This document shows, piece after piece, positions 5,317 to 64,000 of a DNA stretch of 64,000 nt. A model generated the notes under the pieces. It did not search any database and was not told the DNA's origin. It was given only the letters and a program-made list of their open reading frames with translations. The stretch is taken from positions 8,692 to 72,691 of the IMG/VR virus record IMGVR_UViG_3300022745_000026; one strand, 5' to 3'. The translations under genes were made by a program, and so were the position numbers. The DNA comes from a virus. Numbering within the stretch: position 1 is the stretch's first letter; each line of letters starts with the position of its first letter.

Positions 5317-5658
5317 ATGAACTTCAAGCAACTAGCTAAGTGGTACTGGTCCCCCAAGCACCCGACCTCCTACGTGCTTCCCCACCCCAAGGGCGGGCAC
5401 CCGGCAGGTATCGGGCTCTTGGTCAAGAAAGACCCAAGCCTGTGGCCCGCCTTTAACTTGTGCTGGGCCCGGTATGACTTGTCAACTTGGGCAGGGCAGG
5501 AGGCTGCTGTCATGTATGCGACAACAGCCAAGAAGATTTTAGAGCGACCGGCAGAAGGTGGCACACTTGGCGAACTAGCATGCCTACTTGGCCAAGACGG
5601 CTTCACCGCCTACTGTCAAGCGCACGGAATCAAGCTGCACCTCAGCTTGGTTCGCTGA
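5317..5658 (+). CDS. hypothetical protein
   Basis: TAATG and TGATG overlaps with both neighbours. Confidence 0.55.
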   Translation: MNFKQLAKWYWSPKHPTSYVLPHPKGGHPAGIGLLVKKDPSLWPAFNLCWARYDLSTWAGQEAAVMYATTAKKILERPAEGGTLGELACLLGQDGFTAYCQAHGIKLHLSLVR

Positions 5659-46289: not shown

Positions 46290-46359
46290 GCGTCGATTAT
46301 GGGCGGCTTTGTAGTTTTTGGGTGCTTAGGTGGTGGAAGATGGCAGTTTGTGATATACT

Positions 46360-46470
46360 GGCTTCAACAGCTTCTGAATACCTGTAGGAAGGGTAGAATT
46401 CAAAAGCTGTTAAAGGCCTACCGCCTGTGCTTTCGTGTTCCTACCACGGAGGTGCAGGCGGTTTTCTTTT
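46360..46470 (+). ncRNA. structured leader with two hairpins and complementary 7-nt loops
   Basis: TGATATACT extended -10 at 46351-46359; loop GTAGGAA (46384-46390) complements loop TTCCTAC (46438-46444); 18-bp stem with 4 G-U pairs then T run. Confidence 0.65.
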
Positions 46471-46480
46471 GGAGATTGAG

Positions 46481-57786: not shown

Positions 57787-59256
57787 CTACGGCTTCGCTG
57801 GCGGACCCTTTGGCTTCGTAGGGGTCTTTGGTGTGAGGGTCTTCTCTACCGCTGAGGTACCGCTTGTAGGATTGGCAACAGGCGCTGCAGCCGCCGTACT
57901 GCGGAATAAAGTGCCGCTCTTAGGTGTGTAACCTGCAGGAGGCAACTGACCCGTCAACTTCAAGCAGGCCTCCTCATCGGAAATCATGCCCAACGATAGC
58001 AAGTCCAGGATGCGGGACTGCTCCATTGACCTGAAAGCCTCCAACTCTTTGGAGGGGCGTAGGTCAAGTTCCTCATAGGCAAACTCTACGTACCCGTCTA
58101 TACCCATGATGCGAATAGCTACCGTCAGTGCTCGGCTATAAGTCTCATTGAGCTTTCGGCGCAGCATATCCGCAGACTTCAGGTACAACAACGACTCTGT
58201 AGAACTGGCATTGGCCGAACTGCCAAACCCAAGGGCCACTGGCAGTGTCTTCACCCCAGACACCAACTTGGCATTCAGCACCTTCTGCACCTGCTCCAAG
58301 ATTTGACCCGGTTGGTGGCCGCCATCCAAGTAGGAATAATTGACCATATCAAAGGACACAAGCGCATCCTCTGGATTCAGCCCGTTAACTGTGGTCTGTA
58401 CTGCTGCAATCACCGAGTTCTGGTACTCCGCCCACTTCACAGGGTCAGCCAGAATTTCTGGAGGAGTCATCTTCTTCATCTTCTCGCTATCAATACTGGC
58501 AGACAGGCGCGGAAGAATAGCCCGCTTGAGGGTCCTACTCATGTCCTGATCGAACTCAATATCAGCGATAATGCTCTTAATAGAGGACTCAAGGGGAGAA
58601 GTAGGGTGCAACTTGGACGAACTTTGGTCAACACTGGTGTAGATAATCGTAGGTAAATCTAAATCAATCTCTGTACCCCCAATGCGCTGCTTGATCTTAA
58701 ATGAATTCTCTTCTTCATAGAAAATCAGGGTGGGAATCGCAATCACGTTGAAACTTGCTGGAACCCGTGCCTTATCCAAGGCCACTTCCAGGCAGTGTGC
58801 CCCCTCCAGCAACAGGTCTCTGGCCAAGGTCTCTGACAAGCTCTGCAGCCCCTGCTGTACACCCATACTGCCGTCTGCATTACCGAGGTAAGTCAAGCGC
58901 CGCAGCAACTCGTGCGCCAAGGCTGTTGCCGCTGGGTCCACTTGTCCGTCCAAGTTGCGCCCCACCACTGTGAAATTCTCTGGAATACCTGTGCGAATGG
59001 CAAGGTAAATGGCCGCAGACATCTCCCCGGACTGCACACTAGCCTCTTGCAGCACTTGGGAAGTCGTAGAGCGGCTACGCAGGTCAACCAAGCGGTCAAG
59101 ACTGCGTAAATTGCGGTCTTGGCGCGGCACTGCGCTAGTCGTCGGCGTGACATTGCGGCGATAACCTGGCAAGGCCTGCGGCGCATTAGGCGCTTTCGGC
59201 AGTGGTGGCGGTGTCAGTGTAGACGCTTGGAAAAATGACTTGATTGATTCAAACAT
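57787..59256 (-). CDS. portal protein
   Basis: About 489 aa from MFESIK; first large gene after terminase; helical; LGMISDEEA near C-terminus. Confidence 0.75.
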   Translation of the reverse strand: MFESIKSFFQASTLTPPPLPKAPNAPQALPGYRRNVTPTTSAVPRQDRNLRSLDRLVDLRSRSTTSQVLQEASVQSGEMSAAIYLAIRTGIPENFTVVGRNLDGQVDPAATALAHELLRRLTYLGNADGSMGVQQGLQSLSETLARDLLLEGAHCLEVALDKARVPASFNVIAIPTLIFYEEENSFKIKQRIGGTEIDLDLPTIIYTSVDQSSSKLHPTSPLESSIKSIIADIEFDQDMSRTLKRAILPRLSASIDSEKMKKMTPPEILADPVKWAEYQNSVIAAVQTTVNGLNPEDALVSFDMVNYSYLDGGHQPGQILEQVQKVLNAKLVSGVKTLPVALGFGSSANASSTESLLYLKSADMLRRKLNETYSRALTVAIRIMGIDGYVEFAYEELDLRPSKELEAFRSMEQSRILDLLSLGMISDEEACLKLTGQLPPAGYTPKSGTLFRSTAAAAPVANPTSGTSAVEKTLTPKTPTKPKGPPAKP

Positions 59257-60044
59257 AGGGGCTCCGGGGTTTGGGCCGATTCTAACAGAGGTGCTTGGAA
59301 ATCTTCGGATTCTAGGGCTCGTGGGATGGTCCAGCTGTAGCGGTTGAGGCGCTGGTGGACTCGGCTGTACGGCAGGCCAGCAACCTCGCACGCTTCCGCG
59401 AGGCATATATTCTTGCCGATATACGAGACAAGTCGGTTGTTTCGCTTGTTCCGGCCTTGTTCTATTCGAGTCGCCCACACACAGTTCTGGGGGCTATACC
59501 CTAAGTTATTGTCTTCCCGTTCCAGCGTGAGTCCGGGCTTATGGCTAGGTGCCATGTCAGAAATAAGGTTTCGAATGTCATGCCACCTTTCGCAGACTCT
59601 GATTCCGCGACCACCCCAATCGGCAAACTGCTTATTCTCGGGGTTGTAGCAGCGGCTCATCATGTTGTGGTGTGTCGCATAGAGTGGGTGCTTTTCGAGC
59701 CCGTGAGTTGTACGTGCAGCCGCTGAAACCTCCCTACTGTAGCACCCACAACTCATGGTATTGCCTCGGCGCAGTTCATTCAACACAACCCGCCTCTCAA
59801 CACCACAATCACATTGACACAACCACCTGCGATTAGACTGGCTGCAACTTTGCCCAGCAACTTCCTCAACAAGCGTAAGCCTGCTATACTTGTCACTCGG
59901 AAGGTTCTTTTCCCTACCTTTTGGTGCTGTTCTATCTGGAATTGGTGAAGAAAATTCTACGTCATGTGGAGCTCCATTTGAAAGTGGTAGGCCCAACGGT
60001 GAAAATTCCGCTGTGGCACGGTACATCAGGCCGTCCACTATCAA
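59214..60044 (-). CDS. HNH homing endonuclease (start uncertain, possibly frameshifted)
   Basis: WLCQCDCG, SCGC, WGGRGIRVCERW, TLEREDNNLGY.P.NC.WAT. Confidence 0.85.
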   Translation of the reverse strand: MIVDGLMYRATAEFSPLGLPLSNGAPHDVEFSSPIPDRTAPKGREKNLPSDKYSRLTLVEEVAGQSCSQSNRRWLCQCDCGVERRVVLNELRRGNTMSCGCYSREVSAAARTTHGLEKHPLYATHHNMMSRCYNPENKQFADWGGRGIRVCERWHDIRNLISDMAPSHKPGLTLEREDNNLGYSPQNCVWATRIEQGRNKRNNRLVSYIGKNICLAEACEVAGLPYSRVHQRLNRYSWTIPRALESEDFQAPLLESAQTPEPLCLNQSSHFSKRLH

Positions 60045-60086
60045 ATGAAGCTTCAGGCCACAGGTTTAGGCTTTTCACAGCCCTGC
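59966..60086 (-). ncRNA. structured leader with long stem and two predicted pseudoknot pairings
   Basis: TAGAAT -10 at 60091-60096; 18/20-bp stem 60035-60054 with 59968-59987; GTGAAA loop vs TTTCAC; CTGTGGC vs GCCACAG. Confidence 0.55.
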
Positions 60087-60102
60087 AAGAATTCTACCAC
60101 AA

Positions 60103-61776
60103 CTACTTCCGCACCGTAAAACTCGTCACGAGGGGGACCGCGCCCGCGTTCGTCCAGCTTCCGGCGGTCCCGCGCAACAGGCAGGCCGTCAGCAGGTACA
60201 TCAAGCTGAAGTGGTAGTGGTCCTCATGGTCGGTTTTTTTCCAGATGTGGGTTAACTCATCACGAACGAACTCTTGGGCCCTTTTCAATGAAAGCATCTG
60301 AGACATAAACTTTGCATCGTCGCCGGACCGGTGAATTATGATTTTTCGCTCCTTAAAGAGTGAAAGGACTTTATCAAGCATGGCTGTGCGGGCAATCTTT
60401 ACCAGGCGTAAATTCAGCTTTCCTTCTTCCTTGTCCTCCTCCTTTTGGTGGCTGGTGAACAATTCAGGGTTCTTGGAACTGGAAAACATAGCACCCCAAG
60501 CTCGGGGGTCGTAGTCCGTGATCTTGGTTATCAAGTGTGTTTCCGGCTGTGTATCATGCACACTCACCACCACCTTGAACTGAGCACACAACTCTCGCCT
60601 ACGCATCTCAAATATGGAGAGTGGTATAGCCTCTCGGTGTACCGTCAGCAGTGTGCCATCCGCTGTCAACCTGCCGATAGTCACATGGCATAATTGACCC
60701 ATATCAGCCCCAAGACAGTGTAACTCGCTTGAATCTAGCGGGCTGTCCACAAGCGCAGCTTCAAGGTCTTTCAAAGTAATCTGCTCGTTCTCTTCTTCAG
60801 CCACCTCCCCCAAGCACTGGTTCAGGAACTCTGAGCGCTTGGTAAATTCCGTGCTTACCCGCACGAAATAGCTGGGTTTCAGTACCTCACAGGCTGTCGC
60901 AGGGCTGATGTAGTAAGTGTGCGCCTCGTAATTATCATTATCGTTCTCACAAACCCACTCCATGCTAGTCTCTTTCAACTTGGGGTCCCTACCACACTCC
61001 GGGCAATTCCACCGGGCCTTTTGCCAAGCAATATCCTTGATGGATGTGGCAGTAATGTCCGTCATATCCCCAAGAAATCCCGGAATCACGATGTCAGTGT
61101 GAAAACTCGGCATCCACAAGTGGCTGCAGCAGCCGCACTTCGCCATGTGCCGGTAGCGCTTGGAAGTCTCAGCTTCCTTGCTGATGCCGAGCCCTCCAAT
61201 CGTTGGGGTAGAGAATTGCTTGACAATCTGGAGTTTTGAGGCTTGTAGGCGTGAGCGAAACTGCTTCACCGTGTCAGGGTCGCACCTGTCCAGCTCGTCG
61301 AGCACAAGGCAGTCAGCACTAATGGACAAGGCTGCGGTCTCGCTCTTAGTACCTCGTGTAAATAGGAAGTTCTGCCCTATCTTTTTCAGTTCAACAGAGT
61401 CAGTATCCTTATCGACCATGCGTCTCAATGCAGGTGACTCGTTTATAAGTGGGTTGACTTTTGTAGTGGTCAGCTTACTTGCATCTCCAGCACTCGGGAG
61501 GCCGTAGATTACATTAAACTTTGGCTGAGTAGCCATCCCGGCTAAGAAATAGGCGATAGTTGAGGTTGTAGCCCCGATTTGAGCCAATTTTACGATGTTT
61601 GTCGCCCTACTTGTGTCGTTTACGATGTCTTTTTGGAACTGATAGCCGTTCTTGAAGGACATGCGGCGACCTTCCAAGTAGATGTTCTTCTCGATATAAT
61701 CTGACAAATTGTGTAGGTGATACCTGTTGGACACATCATCCACAAGTCTTTGGAAGTGTTCTGTAGCCAAGTTCAT
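60103..61776 (-). CDS. terL: terminase large subunit (lambda gpA-like)
   Basis: KLAQIGAT, VLDELD, FSTPT, CxxC zinc motifs, LGADMG, DHYHF. Confidence 0.9.
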   Translation of the reverse strand: MNLATEHFQRLVDDVSNRYHLHNLSDYIEKNIYLEGRRMSFKNGYQFQKDIVNDTSRATNIVKLAQIGATTSTIAYFLAGMATQPKFNVIYGLPSAGDASKLTTTKVNPLINESPALRRMVDKDTDSVELKKIGQNFLFTRGTKSETAALSISADCLVLDELDRCDPDTVKQFRSRLQASKLQIVKQFSTPTIGGLGISKEAETSKRYRHMAKCGCCSHLWMPSFHTDIVIPGFLGDMTDITATSIKDIAWQKARWNCPECGRDPKLKETSMEWVCENDNDNYEAHTYYISPATACEVLKPSYFVRVSTEFTKRSEFLNQCLGEVAEEENEQITLKDLEAALVDSPLDSSELHCLGADMGQLCHVTIGRLTADGTLLTVHREAIPLSIFEMRRRELCAQFKVVVSVHDTQPETHLITKITDYDPRAWGAMFSSSKNPELFTSHQKEEDKEEGKLNLRLVKIARTAMLDKVLSLFKERKIIIHRSGDDAKFMSQMLSLKRAQEFVRDELTHIWKKTDHEDHYHFSLMYLLTACLLRGTAGSWTNAGAVPLVTSFTVRK

Positions 61777-62816: not shown

Positions 62817-63512
62817 ATGAAAAGGTTTGCTATGTCCACAGTTTCCGTTTCCGTTTCCGTTCTCGCCACTATCTCCAATGTGACGGCTGCACAGCTTGAC
62901 GCGGCCAATGCCACTATTAAAAAAGCGGGTGGCACGCAACAAGCTCTAAGCGCGTATCTACGCACCGGACAAAAAACACACGCTACGACGGGCGCTCTAG
63001 CGTACGTGTGGAATGGCGTCCGCGAATTGCTGGCTGATGGTCAAAAAAGCAAGCTTCAAGGCTTTTCCCTTGCATCAAAAAAAGATAGTGCAGCATTAGA
63101 TACCCTGCGCAATCTCGGTATCGTGAGCGAATCCGGCGCTGTGATTGTTGGTGTCGAGCCCACCTTCAAGGGTAGCAAAGACGATAAGGATTGGAGCGAG
63201 AAATTCCCCCAGTTTTTGGCGCTGGTGCAAGCCAATGAGGCGGTCATTGCAGCGAAAAAAGCCCCCGTCAAAAAAGCCACCACCACCGAAGCCACCACCA
63301 CCGAAGCCACCACCACCGAAGCCACCACCACCGAAGCCACCACCACCGAAGCCCCAAAAACTCCCGGACAAATTGACGACGATACTACTGCCCACATCAT
63401 CGCCCGAATCAATGCCGGCATGTTATCTAATGACAACATCAAGGCGCTATTGGCAGTGTTAGCCCCTCATGGCGTAAAACCCGCACCGAAAAAACAAGCT
63501 GTAAACGCCTAA
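62817..63512 (+). CDS. hypothetical protein with ATTTE repeats; first gene of a divergent unit
   Basis: 231-aa ORF after AT-rich promoter region (TAAAAT at 62752); start may be MSTVS after AAGG. Confidence 0.65.
   Translation: MKRFAMSTVSVSVSVLATISNVTAAQLDAANATIKKAGGTQQALSAYLRTGQKTHATTGALAYVWNGVRELLADGQKSKLQGFSLASKKDSAALDTLRNLGIVSESGAVIVGVEPTFKGSKDDKDWSEKFPQFLALVQANEAVIAAKKAPVKKATTTEATTTEATTTEATTTEATTTEAPKTPGQIDDDTTAHIIARINAGMLSNDNIKALLAVLAPHGVKPAPKKQAVNA
63276..63350 (+). repeat. 5 x 15-bp GCCACCACCACCGAA (ATTTE)
   Basis: Read directly. Confidence 0.95.
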
Positions 63513-63620: not shown

Positions 63621-63807
63621 TAGTTCTCCTAAATGATGCAAAGTGCAGCACGCCATGAAGGTGTGTGTCGCGTACTATTTGTTTAGTCCTGGGTGTTTTA
63701 TCCCGTGTCGGTCCCGTTATTCGGTCCCGTATCGCGTGCAGTGTGATAGCTGCTATTCACTCGGATAGTACCCGAAAAATTTAGGGGCATATATCTTGTT
63801 TAGTGCA

Positions 63808-63975
63808 GTGGCTCTGCCCGTGGCTCTGCCCGTGGCTCTGCCAGTGGCTCTGCCCGTGGCTCTGCCCGTGGCTCTGCCCGTGGCTCTGCCCGTGGCTCTG
63901 CCAGTGGCTCTGCCCGTGGCTCTGCCCGTGGCTCTGCCCGTGGCTCTGCCCGTGGCTCTGCCCGTGGCTCTGCCC
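63808..63975. repeat. 14 x 12-bp GTGGCTCTGCC(C/A) tandem array
   Basis: Read directly; units 3 and 8 end in A. Confidence 0.95.
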
Positions 63976-64000
63976 ACGCACCAGAAAAATCAGCTTCATG

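What the first reader, a model, noticed from the sequence alone, without database searches (positions are those of the whole stretch)
59957..60096. Second, sequence-unrelated pseudoknotted leader in front of the terL-portal HNH
Seen on the - strand: TAGAAT, then hairpin GGCT-GTGAAA-AGCC, a linker CTGTGGC, then a long rod. The rod pairs GAAGCTTCATTTGATAGTGG with CCACTTTCAAATGGAGCTCC (18/20), extends through GGCCTGATG/CGTTGGGCC and is capped by loop GCCACA. The unpaired TTTTCAC (59999-60005) complements the GTGAAA loop, and the GCCACA(G) cap complements the linker, giving two long-range pairings. The 3' arm of the rod buries a GGAG RBS. Inference: a compact tertiary RNA controlling or accompanying the nuclease.
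Basis: partly seen in the sequence, partly recalled or inferred. Interest (0 to 1): 0.7.

Follow-up and report, generated by a model that had tools for sequence, protein, structure and literature searches.

The report
Conserved folded leader locking a start site
In front of a selfish DNA-cutting gene of a lake phage lies a conserved RNA leader of about 120 bases that folds into a long rod hiding the ribosome landing site, probably keeping the nuclease's production very low, though in this phage the gene's normal start is broken by a one-base deletion.

Summary
On the - strand, 60083-59967 folds into a small 5' hairpin (loop GUGAAA) plus a rod of about 90 nt (MFE -53.7 kcal/mol, z -4.69, 0 of 200 shuffles as stable). 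The rod pairs the GGAG ribosome binding site.

I found three sequence types of this leader in five distinct sequences (six loci). Type A is the window, L082 and L083. Type B is L164 and L169. Type C is L040, from another phage. Across them, 96% of pair cells hold and 20 of 38 pairs change on both sides.

No Rfam family matches. The leader is an island of 96-100% identity between flanks of 55-90%.

The hairpin loop and a 9-nt bulge (AAYUUUCAC) are invariant and complementary, 35 of 35 cells, but only one pair covaries. The linker/apical-loop pairing has weak statistical support and cannot coexist with the full rod.

The leader is not specific to HNH genes. Type C precedes a 59-aa ORF and a replication gene.

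My reading is a translation-locking leader, possibly with a delaying early fold.

In the window a 1-nt deletion turns the HNH start into ATG-ACG-TAG.

Earlier scan notes cover this same genome only.

The parts
60091..60120 (-). Promoter-like site: TTTACG, 18-nt spacer, TG-n-TAGAAT. It overlaps the terL stop codon (TAG, 60105-60103) and ends 7 nt before hairpin H1.
   Evidence: 9 of 12 matches, TG present. TGnTAGAAT is kept in L082, L164 and L169. That it acts as a promoter is inferred; no RNA 5' end data were available.
60068..60083 (-). Hairpin H1: GGGCU-GUGAAA-AGCCU. The stem has 5 bp. The loop GUGAAA (60078-60073) is invariant in all five sequences.
   Evidence: The stem covaries between types (GGGCU/AGCCU in A against ACGCU/AGCGU in type C).
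60057..60063 (-). Linker segment X (CUGUGGC), the exact complement of the apical loop X' (GCCACAG, 60017-60011).
   Evidence: Longest Watson-Crick match is 7 nt, p about 0.01 by shuffling. Type B has CUGGGG/CCCCAG and type C has GGCGG/CCGCC, with weaker statistics.
60035..60055 (-). 5' arm of the lower rod (P2a). It contains the conserved UUGA-U-AG with a U.U mismatch.
60024..60032 (-). 5' strand of the upper rod (P2b). It contains ATG 60026, which in this window is in frame with the HNH body.
60008..60021 (-). Apical hairpin P3: CCGU-GCCACA-GCGG. All 4 stem pairs covary between types.
   Evidence: helix 4: 4 of 4 pairs change on both sides and 100% of cells are paired.
59999..60007 (-). Nine-nucleotide bulge AAUUUUCAC, present as AAYUUUCAC in all types. 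It is the complement of the H1 loop plus the loop's 3' neighbour.
   Evidence: 35 of 35 cells paired, 6 pairs invariant, 1 pair seen as A-U, G.U and G-C.
59990..59998 (-). 3' strand of the upper rod (P2b).
59967..59987 (-). 3' arm of the lower rod. It holds the Shine-Dalgarno-like GGAG (59975-59972). C at 59969 makes an A.C mismatch, which is A-U in L082 and in the contig of run X4.
59957..59965 (-). ATG-ACG-TAG: the ancestral HNH start codon, now followed by a stop. One base is missing between 59961 and 59960; relatives read ATG ACA GTA GAA (MTVEF...).
59214..59956 (-). Body of the HNH endonuclease gene (phrog_374). Its 3' end overlaps the portal start at 59256.
60103..61776 (-). Large terminase gene upstream of the leader.

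Best explanation
This is a cis-acting 5' leader of an mRNA, about 120 nt long, belonging to a small family not yet described in freshwater phages.

Shown:
- A 5-6 bp hairpin (H1) with an invariant GUGAAA loop lies 6-7 nt behind a -10-like hexamer.
- It is followed by a rod of about 90 nt (-45 to -58 kcal/mol).
- The rod's 3' arm pairs the Shine-Dalgarno-like purines of the first downstream gene and ends at the start codon, or inside it in type B.
- The rod keeps its pairs through many double changes in three otherwise dissimilar sequence types.
- The leader is the best conserved stretch of the locus.

Inferred:
- At equilibrium the rod locks the translation start, so the downstream gene (here a homing-type HNH nuclease) is made only rarely.
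- A rod this stable should not open by itself, so expression needs a way round it. The way I favour is that the leader first folds differently while it is being transcribed. The H1 loop would pair with the invariant bulge (GUGAAAR with YUUUCAC), and the linker X with the apical loop X'. Both partners are made before the 3' arm. This early 5' fold would delay the lock and give ribosomes a short window, as in the delayed folding of the MS2 maturation-gene leader.
- Cleavage of the rod by RNase III is the main alternative release.

In this particular phage a 1-nt deletion has destroyed the normal HNH start, so the leader now fronts a broken or N-terminally re-started gene.
For: Fold stability:
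- Window z -4.69 (0 of 200 shuffles).
- L082 z -4.72 (0 of 200).
- L040 z -5.48 (0 of 200).

Covariation on 5 sequences of 3 types:
- 96.2% of 186 cells are paired, against 74.0% in shuffles (0 of 500 shuffles reach it).
- 20 of 38 pairs change on both sides.
- Slid controls give 33-47% paired and 0-2 such pairs.
- RNAalifold on the same alignment predicts the same helices: 37 pairs, 20 compensatory, covariation term -9.25.

Family relationship:
- A model built from types B and C alone finds type A at 75-79 bits, E about 1e-16.

Conservation:
- Window against L082: leader 98-100% identical, between terL end 75-80% and HNH 55-70%.
- L164 against L169: leader 96-98%, against terL end 80-90% and HNH 60-75%.

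Start-site burial and coding:
- SD-like purines are paired in the rod in all three types.
- The ORFs that cross the conserved bulge are in three different frames in A, B and C. This is my reading, and it argues against coding constraint.

Pairing favours the sense strand in type A: -53.7 against -44.0 kcal/mol, owing to G.U pairs.

Long-range complementarities:
- Loop/bulge is complementary in 35 of 35 cells. The seventh pair occurs as A-U, G.U and G-C.
- TTTCAC occurs downstream in only about 4% of shuffles.
- X:X' appears in the predicted nascent MFE at some lengths in 4 of 5 sequences.

Precedents:
- Start-site-sequestering hairpins of phage homing endonuclease genes I-TevI, mobE and segB (PMC3014915, passages read).
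- MS2 delayed folding (PMC4615214, passages read).
Against: - No RNA evidence for the leader. The only RNA-library contig laid covers 59595-59842 inside the gene, with 11 differences, and may be DNA carry-over.
- The type B fold is not more stable than shuffles: z -1.21, 26 of 200 shuffles as stable. Its strand asymmetry is small or reversed.
- The promoter is only a consensus match, and the scan found none in front of type C (0 found).
- The loop/bulge pairing has no significant covariation (148 of 500 shuffles reach it). It appears in the nascent MFE in only 2 of 5 sequences, with ensemble probability 0.01-0.03 in the type A (L082) and type C sequences tested.
- X:X' statistics are weak: p 0.03-0.09 in type B and 0.16-0.25 in type C. 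By duplex energy p is 0.19 even for type A; in that call the linkers for types B and C were cut short by my automatic boundaries.
- The forced alternative fold is about 15-28 kcal/mol (mostly about 20) less stable than the rod.
- The family is tiny: 5 distinct sequences in 3 types. The alignment behind the pair counts was fitted to the model's structure.
- In the window the gene behind the leader has lost its start.
Confidence: 0.55

Rival explanations
1. The rod is an RNase III processing site. It would be cut by host RNase III either to unmask the start site (as in lambda cIII and adhE) or to destroy the message. On this view H1 and the conserved bulge serve stability or enzyme positioning, not an alternative fold.
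For: - The lower helix has 20-24 bp with a single conserved U.U or U.C mismatch at its centre.
- The rod is too stable to open spontaneously (-45 to -58 kcal/mol).
- RNase III unmasking of occluded ribosome binding sites, and RNase III sites in lambda, T7 and T3, are described in PMC5371410 (passages read).
Against: - It does not explain why the H1 loop and the bulge are invariant and complementary.
- No cleavage data exist, and the host and its RNase III are unknown.
- It is compatible with the main reading rather than exclusive of it.
Confidence: 0.15
2. One reading: a compact tertiary RNA in which the rod, the loop/bulge pairing and the linker/cap pairing all form together (a double pseudoknot). 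It would act as a sensor or a protein-binding platform.
For: - Both complementarities exist in all three types.
- Linker length rises with rod length: roughly 11, 12 and 14 nt for about 27, 32 and 33 stacked layers in C, A and B. This is my count, with n = 3.
Against: - X lies 1-2 nt from the rod base while X' is the apical loop more than 30 stacked pairs away, so X:X' and the full rod exclude each other unless the rod bends back sharply (my inference; no 3D tool was available).
- The loop/bulge contact would need a fully stretched linker.
- X:X' is statistically weak.
Confidence: 0.1
3. A DNA-level element: an inverted repeat serving as a recombination or homing-site feature, a cruciform or an operator of the HNH cassette, not an RNA.
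For: - An HNH gene of the same family (phrog_374) lies next to the leader at both independent loci.
- TAGAAT-like words recur at the cassette borders.
- Type B folds about equally well on either strand.
Against: - G.U pairs make type A about 10 kcal/mol better on the sense strand.
- Covariation keeps G.U-compatible pairs.
- The element always ends at a start codon with the SD inside the 3' arm.
- H1 sits at a fixed distance behind a -10-like hexamer.
Confidence: 0.06
4. The region is coding: an N-terminal extension of the HNH protein or a conserved upstream ORF, and the palindrome is incidental.
For: - In the window the HNH frame is open from ATG 60026 or TTG 60044.
- Database proteins P0010 and P0011 carry an N-terminal extension M[HY]RATAEFSP... 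that matches this stretch.
Against: - Relatives start at M(T/K)VEF or MF... directly behind the rod.
- The window's open frame is the result of a 1-nt deletion that is absent from another sample and from L082.
- The frame through the conserved bulge differs in A, B and C, and type B has no ATG in the leader.
- The PHROG match to the HNH family starts only at residue 42 of the extended ORF.
Confidence: 0.04

Closest known systems
Start-site-sequestering hairpins of phage homing endonuclease genes: T4 I-TevI, Aeromonas phage Aeh1 mobE, and (implicated) T4 segB
   Same: - The Shine-Dalgarno sequence and/or start codon of a selfish nuclease gene is locked in an RNA helix that limits translation (PMC3014915, passages read).
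- The gene here is a free-standing HNH (phrog_374) that is missing from a related phage (L173).
   Different: - The rod here is much longer and more stable (about 90 nt, -45 to -58 kcal/mol).
- It carries a 5' hairpin and an invariant bulge complementary to that hairpin's loop.
- No usable internal late promoter that would free the start site was found. The only consensus hit inside the rod places its -10 hexamer behind the start codon.
- The same leader also fronts a non-nuclease gene (type C).
[quoted passage not shown]
   Same: A final long-distance pairing hides the ribosome binding site, and an earlier-forming metastable structure postpones it, so that only fresh RNA is translated (PMC4615214, passages read). 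Here too the candidate early partners (X', bulge) are made before the locking 3' arm.
   Different: - This is a DNA phage mRNA, not an RNA genome.
- The early fold here is only predicted: X:X' in 4 of 5 and loop/bulge in 2 of 5 nascent MFEs.
- There is no sequence or Rfam relation.
The other HNH-AP2 leaders of this same phage (earlier scan notes e1-6199903 and e1-6199912)
   Same: - A -10-like element, a first hairpin whose loop (there GUAGGAA) is complementary to a loop further on (there UUCCUAC), then GGAG-ATG. I read those two heptamers.
- The pattern GU-NNN-AA / UU-NNN-AC also fits GUGAAAA / UUUUCAC.
   Different: - There the second element is a terminator-like hairpin with a U-run, and the partner sits in its loop. 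Here it is a long rod without a U-run, and the partner is a bulge about 30 pairs above the base.
- The two are not detectably related: no R1 or R2 hit at 46351-46480.
RNase III-controlled leaders (lambda cIII, E. coli adhE, T7 processing sites)
   Same: A long double-stranded leader that occludes a ribosome binding site (PMC5371410, passages read).
   Different: Cleavage is untested here. The conserved single-stranded motifs are not part of those sites, as far as I recall (recalled, not tested).
Lambdoid boxB (nut) hairpins
   Same: H1 has a 5-bp stem closed by U-A and a purine-rich loop starting with G, placed early in a transcript. The resemblance is recalled from memory and comes from no call.
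   Different: H1 has a hexaloop rather than a pentaloop. No boxA-like element or N-like gene was identified. This was not tested here.

Membership tests
Any Rfam 15 family | A covariance-model match at or near the family's gathering score | tested here: not met
   with E-value threshold 10 on 59000-61000: 4 matches. The only one overlapping the leader is MIR5638 at 9 bits against a gathering score of 500.
Start-site-sequestering hairpin of phage homing endonuclease genes (I-TevI / mobE type) | The Shine-Dalgarno sequence and/or start codon is base-paired in a local helix | tested here: met
   - GGAG 59975-59972 is paired in the MFE.
- AAGG and the AU of AUG are paired in type B.
- AGGUGA is paired in type C.
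- The pairs are kept with covariation.
Start-site-sequestering hairpin of phage homing endonuclease genes (I-TevI / mobE type) | The downstream gene is a homing endonuclease | tested here: inconclusive
   - Types A and B front an HNH of phrog_374. The gene is absent from relative L173, where terL abuts portal.
- Type C fronts a 59-aa ORF followed by a replication initiator.
- Homing activity itself was not tested.
Start-site-sequestering hairpin of phage homing endonuclease genes (I-TevI / mobE type) | A later promoter inside the hairpin yields transcripts that lack the 5' arm (T4 I-TevI) | tested here: not met
   The only consensus site inside the rod (TTCAAA, 17-nt spacer, TAGAAT; 59982-59954) has its -10 hexamer downstream of the start codon, so it could not express the gene.
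Delayed-folding leader (MS2 maturation gene type) | A final structure that pairs the ribosome binding site with an upstream complementary strand | tested here: met
Delayed-folding leader (MS2 maturation gene type) | A metastable structure formed earlier in synthesis that postpones the final pairing | tested here: inconclusive
   - Nascent-length MFEs contain X:X' in 4 of 5 sequences and loop/bulge in 2 of 5.
- findpath barriers from the nascent fold to the rod are 9-24 kcal/mol.
- Nested-model predictions only; no kinetic simulation with pseudoknots was run.
Delayed-folding leader (MS2 maturation gene type) | Translation limited to nascent or unfolded RNA | not testable with these tools
   Needs in vitro or in vivo expression kinetics.
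Pseudoknot / kissing interaction (loop GUGAAAR with bulge YUUUCAC) | Complementarity is kept in all members | tested here: met
   35 of 35 cells paired, against 40-57% in slid controls.
Pseudoknot / kissing interaction (loop GUGAAAR with bulge YUUUCAC) | Compensatory covariation beyond chance | tested here: inconclusive
   6 pairs are invariant and 1 pair occurs as A-U (2 sequences), G-C (2) and G.U (1). 148 of 500 shuffles reach the observed value.
Pseudoknot (linker X with apical loop X') | Complementarity beyond chance in independent types | tested here: inconclusive
   type A 7 nt, p 0.01 (the type the idea came from); type B 6 nt, p 0.03-0.09; type C 5 nt, p 0.16-0.25.
RNase III substrate | About two turns or more of nearly continuous double-stranded RNA | tested here: met
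   The lower rod has 20-24 bp with one mismatch.
RNase III substrate | Cleavage by RNase III | not testable with these tools
   Needs an enzyme assay.
Lambdoid nut/boxB | A GNRA-like pentaloop hairpin bound by an N-type protein, with boxA | not tested
   The resemblance of H1 is recalled only. No call addressed it.

The most novel reading that the evidence does not exclude
A portable, self-timing translation switch. A 5' pseudoknot clamp (H1 loop with the invariant bulge, plus linker with apical loop) would form on the nascent RNA and briefly hold off an ultra-stable rod that then locks the ribosome binding site for good. Each transcript would be translated only in a short burst. The module would be shared between an early replication operon in one phage and a homing-nuclease cassette in another, which may have captured it.
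Probability: 0.25. Interest if true: 0.7.

Novelty: new variant of a known kind. Interest (0 to 1): 0.5.

Why it matters
Homing endonucleases must be made in tiny, well-timed amounts, and only a few of their control devices are known (T4 I-TevI, Aeh1 mobE).

Here a leader backed by covariation, with no Rfam counterpart, shows a much heavier lock than those. It also has two invariant, mutually complementary single-stranded motifs.

The family also documents that such a leader moves between gene contexts.

Finally, it flags that the HNH gene of this phage has just lost its start codon context, which is useful for annotation.

Tried and rejected
Searches that found nothing or too little:
- Rfam gave nothing.
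- blastn of the terL-HNH-portal stretch against GenBank phages gave no match.
I therefore could not fetch the DNA behind the closest HNH homologs. These include P0002, P0004, P0005, P0007-P0009, P0012 and P0017, and especially P0010 and P0011, whose N-terminal extensions show a further leader variant.
The close relatives L082 and L083 were missed by both and were found by DNA pattern instead.
- The metagenome scan returned 5 loci, of which only L164 was close.
- The pattern scan for hairpin plus bulge in viral contigs gave 7 hits. Four were known members. Three (L174, L176, L177) have no H1 stem on reading.
- The same pattern in genome contigs gave 62 hits, with no convincing model match. In a search of 65 sources (those 62 plus L174, L176 and L177) the best was 13.4 bits, E 0.81.
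- A pattern with variable loop and bulge triplets gave 80 hits. That list was evidently capped, since known members were not listed. None of the 80 had complementary triplets, so the scan is uninformative about covariation.
- Models R1 and R2 found no further member in the other HNH loci. R1 hit 1 of 84 sources (L040) and 0 of 80. R2 hit 0 of 84 and 0 of 80.
- Only one copy per record was found in G000, G001 and G002. The first-look filter of that tool missed the known copy in G004.

Analyses that did not work as intended:
- The MAFFT alignment of types A and B put the 3' arms out of register: only the 5 H1 pairs coincided. I used Infernal alignments instead.
- The duplex-energy shuffle test of X:X' was uninformative, and my automatic linker boundaries were wrong for types B and C. 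It was replaced by the longest-match test.

Sequencing runs:
- All runs were available only as contigs, so no RNA 5' ends could be seen. The RNA-library run X14 does not cover the leader.

Ideas rejected or left as leads:
- Intrinsic terminator or attenuator: no U-run follows the rod in any type.
- Conserved upstream ORF: the start codons and frames differ between types.
- CRP-like operator halves: the spacing is about 70 nt.
- Weak model hit at window 5419-5477 (15.8 bits): it shows no resemblance on reading.
- boxB resemblance: kept as a recalled lead only.

Other limits:
- Paper PMC2655525 is not held; its content is cited only through the review PMC3014915.
- Supplementary files were not consulted.
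Full report
**Where it lies.** On the - strand the large terminase gene (61776-60103; PF05876, phrog_675) ends with TAG at 60105-60103. A gene of the HNH family phrog_374 follows, with its core from about 59921 to the stop at 59214. Then comes the portal gene (phrog_3753). The finding covers the stretch between the terL stop and the HNH core.

- The 140 nt fold to -53.7 kcal/mol. Shuffles give -36.5 +/- 3.7, so z is -4.69, and 0 of 200 shuffles fold as well.
- The fold is a 5-bp hairpin H1 (60083-60068, loop GUGAAA) followed by a rod.
- The rod has a lower helix of 20-21 pairs with one U.U mismatch (60055-60035 with 59987-59967) and an upper helix of 9 pairs with three G.U pairs.
- At the top is a 4-bp apical hairpin with loop GCCACA, next to a 9-nt bulge AAUUUUCAC.
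- GGAG (59975-59972) is paired in the 3' arm.
- UUUUCAC is the complement of GUGAAAA, and GCCACAG is the complement of the linker CUGUGGC.
- Rfam has no family for it.

**A correction about the gene.** The ATG behind GGAG (59965) is followed by ACG TAG.
- Database homologs start M(T/K)VEFSSPIP or MF(S/N)..., directly behind the rod.
- Relative L082 reads ATG ACA GTA GAA.
- Contigs of a possible source run reproduce the window exactly: 0 differences over 1301 nt.
- A contig from another sample carries one extra base between 59960 and 59961, giving ATG ACA GTA GAA. It also carries a C-to-U change at 59969 that turns the rod's A.C mismatch into A-U.
- So this phage carries a 1-nt deletion in codon 2 of the HNH gene. 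The body is then in frame only with ATG 60026 or TTG 60044, both buried in the rod.
- The extended open frame is therefore an accident of the deletion, not evidence that the leader is coding.

**Relatives.** I used pattern and protein scans instead.
- Type A is the window, L082 and L083. They are nearly identical, with 2 differences in about 123 nt.
- Type B is L164 and L169. They share the same terL end, the same TGnTAGAAT and the same H1, but the sequence behind H1 is quite different. It again forms a rod that ends in the HNH start ATGTTT.
- Type C is L040. It was found by covariance model R1 (built from type A) at 46.8 bits, E 9e-11, and folds with z -5.48.
- A model built only from types B and C finds type A at 75-79 bits.
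- No other member turned up. The other 159 of 160 HNH-family loci fetched had none. The pattern hits in 596 Gb of prokaryote genomes had none. There are no second copies in the same phage records.

**Shared architecture.** The order of elements is:
- a -10-like hexamer;
- 6-7 nt;
- H1, with a covarying stem and an invariant GUGAAA loop;
- (U)AAA;
- linker X;
- the 5' arm of the rod, with a conserved central UUGA-U-A(A)G opposite CUU-Y-UCAA;
- a short upper helix;
- a 4-bp hairpin P3 carrying X' in or beside its loop;
- the invariant bulge AAYUUUCAC;
- the 3' strand of the upper helix;
- the 3' arm holding SD-like purines;
- the start codon.

Pair counts on the Infernal alignment of the five distinct sequences support this.
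- 96.2% of 186 cells are paired, against 74.0% in shuffles (0 of 500 shuffles reach it).
- 20 of 38 pairs change on both sides.
- Slid controls give 33-47% paired.
- RNAalifold predicts the same helices.
- Caveats: there are only three independent types, and the alignment was fitted to the structure.
- Against: type B on its own is not more stable than shuffles (z -1.21, 26 of 200).

**Selection on the leader.**
- Window against L082: the leader is 98-100% identical, while the terL end is 75-80% and the HNH gene 55-70%.
- L164 against L169: the leader is 96-98%, against terL end 80-90% and HNH 60-75%.
- The few differences within a type fall on loops, mismatches or wobble positions.
- ORFs crossing the bulge use three different frames in the three types (my reading).
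- In type A the sense strand folds about 10 kcal/mol better than the antisense, because of G.U pairs. This is not so in type B.
- Together this argues for constraint on an RNA, not on a protein or on duplex DNA.

**The two long-range pairings: loop and bulge.**
- GUGAAAR pairs with YUUUCAC in 35 of 35 cells.
- The seventh pair occurs as A-U, G.U and G-C. The other six pairs never vary.
- Covariation is therefore not significant (148 of 500 shuffles reach it).
- The strength of the case is that the two longest invariant single-stranded stretches of the family are each other's complement.
- TTTCAC occurs downstream in about 4% of shuffles.

**The two long-range pairings: linker and apical loop.**
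- The pairs are CUGUGGC/GCCACAG in A, CUGGGG/CCCCAG in B and GGCGG/CCGCC in C.
- The chance levels are p 0.01 in A, 0.03-0.09 in B and 0.16-0.25 in C. This is suggestive only.
- X lies 1-2 nt from the base of a stack of more than 30 pairs, and X' sits at its apex.
- I therefore infer that X:X' and the complete rod exclude each other. The compact double pseudoknot is unlikely.

**An alternative fold.**
- Forced folds with both pairings are about 15-28 kcal/mol (mostly about 20) less stable than the rod.
- At transcript lengths before the 3' arm exists, the MFE contains X:X' in 4 of 5 sequences and loop/bulge in 2 of 5.
- The estimated barriers from the nascent fold to the rod are 9-24 kcal/mol.

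**Context.**
- L173, a relative with 60% terL and 59% portal identity, has terL followed after 48 nt by portal, with no HNH gene. The HNH gene is therefore optional, as expected of a homing-type element.
- The word GTTAGAATC of the L173 spacer recurs just upstream of the window's portal start, inside the HNH 3' end. This suggests that leader plus HNH were inserted into a short terL-portal spacer.
- In type C the leader follows an HNH gene of the same family. That gene was itself inserted with a duplication of the last roughly 25-30 codons of the upstream gene. The leader there fronts a 59-aa ORF coupled to a replication initiator, phrog_2509.
- The leader is thus a general device of the first gene behind it, not a part of the nuclease.
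- The promoter reading rests on a consensus match for types A and B and on a TAAAAT hexamer I read in type C. The scan did not score a promoter there (0 found).

**Mechanism.**
- Shown: a conserved rod that pairs the SD and abuts the start codon.
- Inferred: it represses translation, as do the known hairpins of I-TevI, mobE and segB (PMC3014915, passages read).
- A rod of -45 to -58 kcal/mol will not breathe open, so some release is needed.
- I favour a transient 5' fold (loop/bulge plus X:X') that delays the lock, by analogy with the MS2 maturation gene (PMC4615214, passages read).
- RNase III cleavage is the main rival and may act as well (PMC5371410, passages read).
- No RNA data bear on this. 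The single RNA-library contig lies inside the gene body and differs at 11 places.

**Verdict.** The structure is real and conserved. The translation-lock reading is well grounded. The pseudoknot part is an open and testable lead. I class it as a new variant of a known kind, of moderate interest. The earlier notes of this scan concern the same genome only.

Noticed in passing
window 59957-59965 (-): The HNH start reads ATG-ACG-TAG because one base is missing relative to L082 and to a contig from another sample (ATG ACA GTA GAA). The gene body is otherwise identical to database protein P0001. This is a fresh frameshift, or a re-start from ATG 60026.
   Followed up: yes
L040 121-160 and 868-908: The HNH gene of this contig is flanked by a direct duplication of the last roughly 25-30 codons of the upstream gene (...ECGLTKT..RDGC.VWI...). 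The upstream gene keeps its end and the HNH ORF runs into the second copy. This looks like an insertion footprint of a homing element.
   Followed up: partly
window 60096-60091, 59959-59954, 59319-59314 and 59284-59279 (-); L173 4661-4666: The hexamer TAGAAT recurs in several places: at the terL stop, at codons 3-4 of the HNH gene, twice in the HNH 3' end (the second as GTTAGAATC just before the portal start), and in the terL-portal spacer of the HNH-less relative. These may be cassette borders or reused -10 elements.
   Followed up: partly
window 60040/59982 (-), and the same position in L040 and L164: A single U.U mismatch (U.C in type B) sits at the centre of the lower rod. It is flanked by the most conserved pairs of the rod (UUGA-U-AG opposite CU-U-UCAA). 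It may be a recognition point for an RNase or a protein.
   Followed up: no
window 59595-59842: A 248-nt contig from a freshwater metatranscriptome library matches the HNH body with 11 differences. It comes from a relative, and DNA carry-over cannot be excluded.
   Followed up: partly
window 63753-64000: A run of 12-nt tandem repeats reads as GRAT / PVAL / SHGQ-type peptide repeats in several frames, at the end of the window.
   Followed up: no
window 63280-63350 (+), inside ORF 62817-63512: A protein with five tandem TTEA(T) repeats and a Lys/Ala-rich tail, on the opposite strand to the packaging genes.
   Followed up: no
window 46351-46480 (+): The other HNH-AP2 leader has GUAGGAA in a first hairpin loop and UUCCUAC in the loop of a terminator-like hairpin. 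This is the same kind of loop complementarity as here, but the two are unrelated by covariance model.
   Followed up: partly
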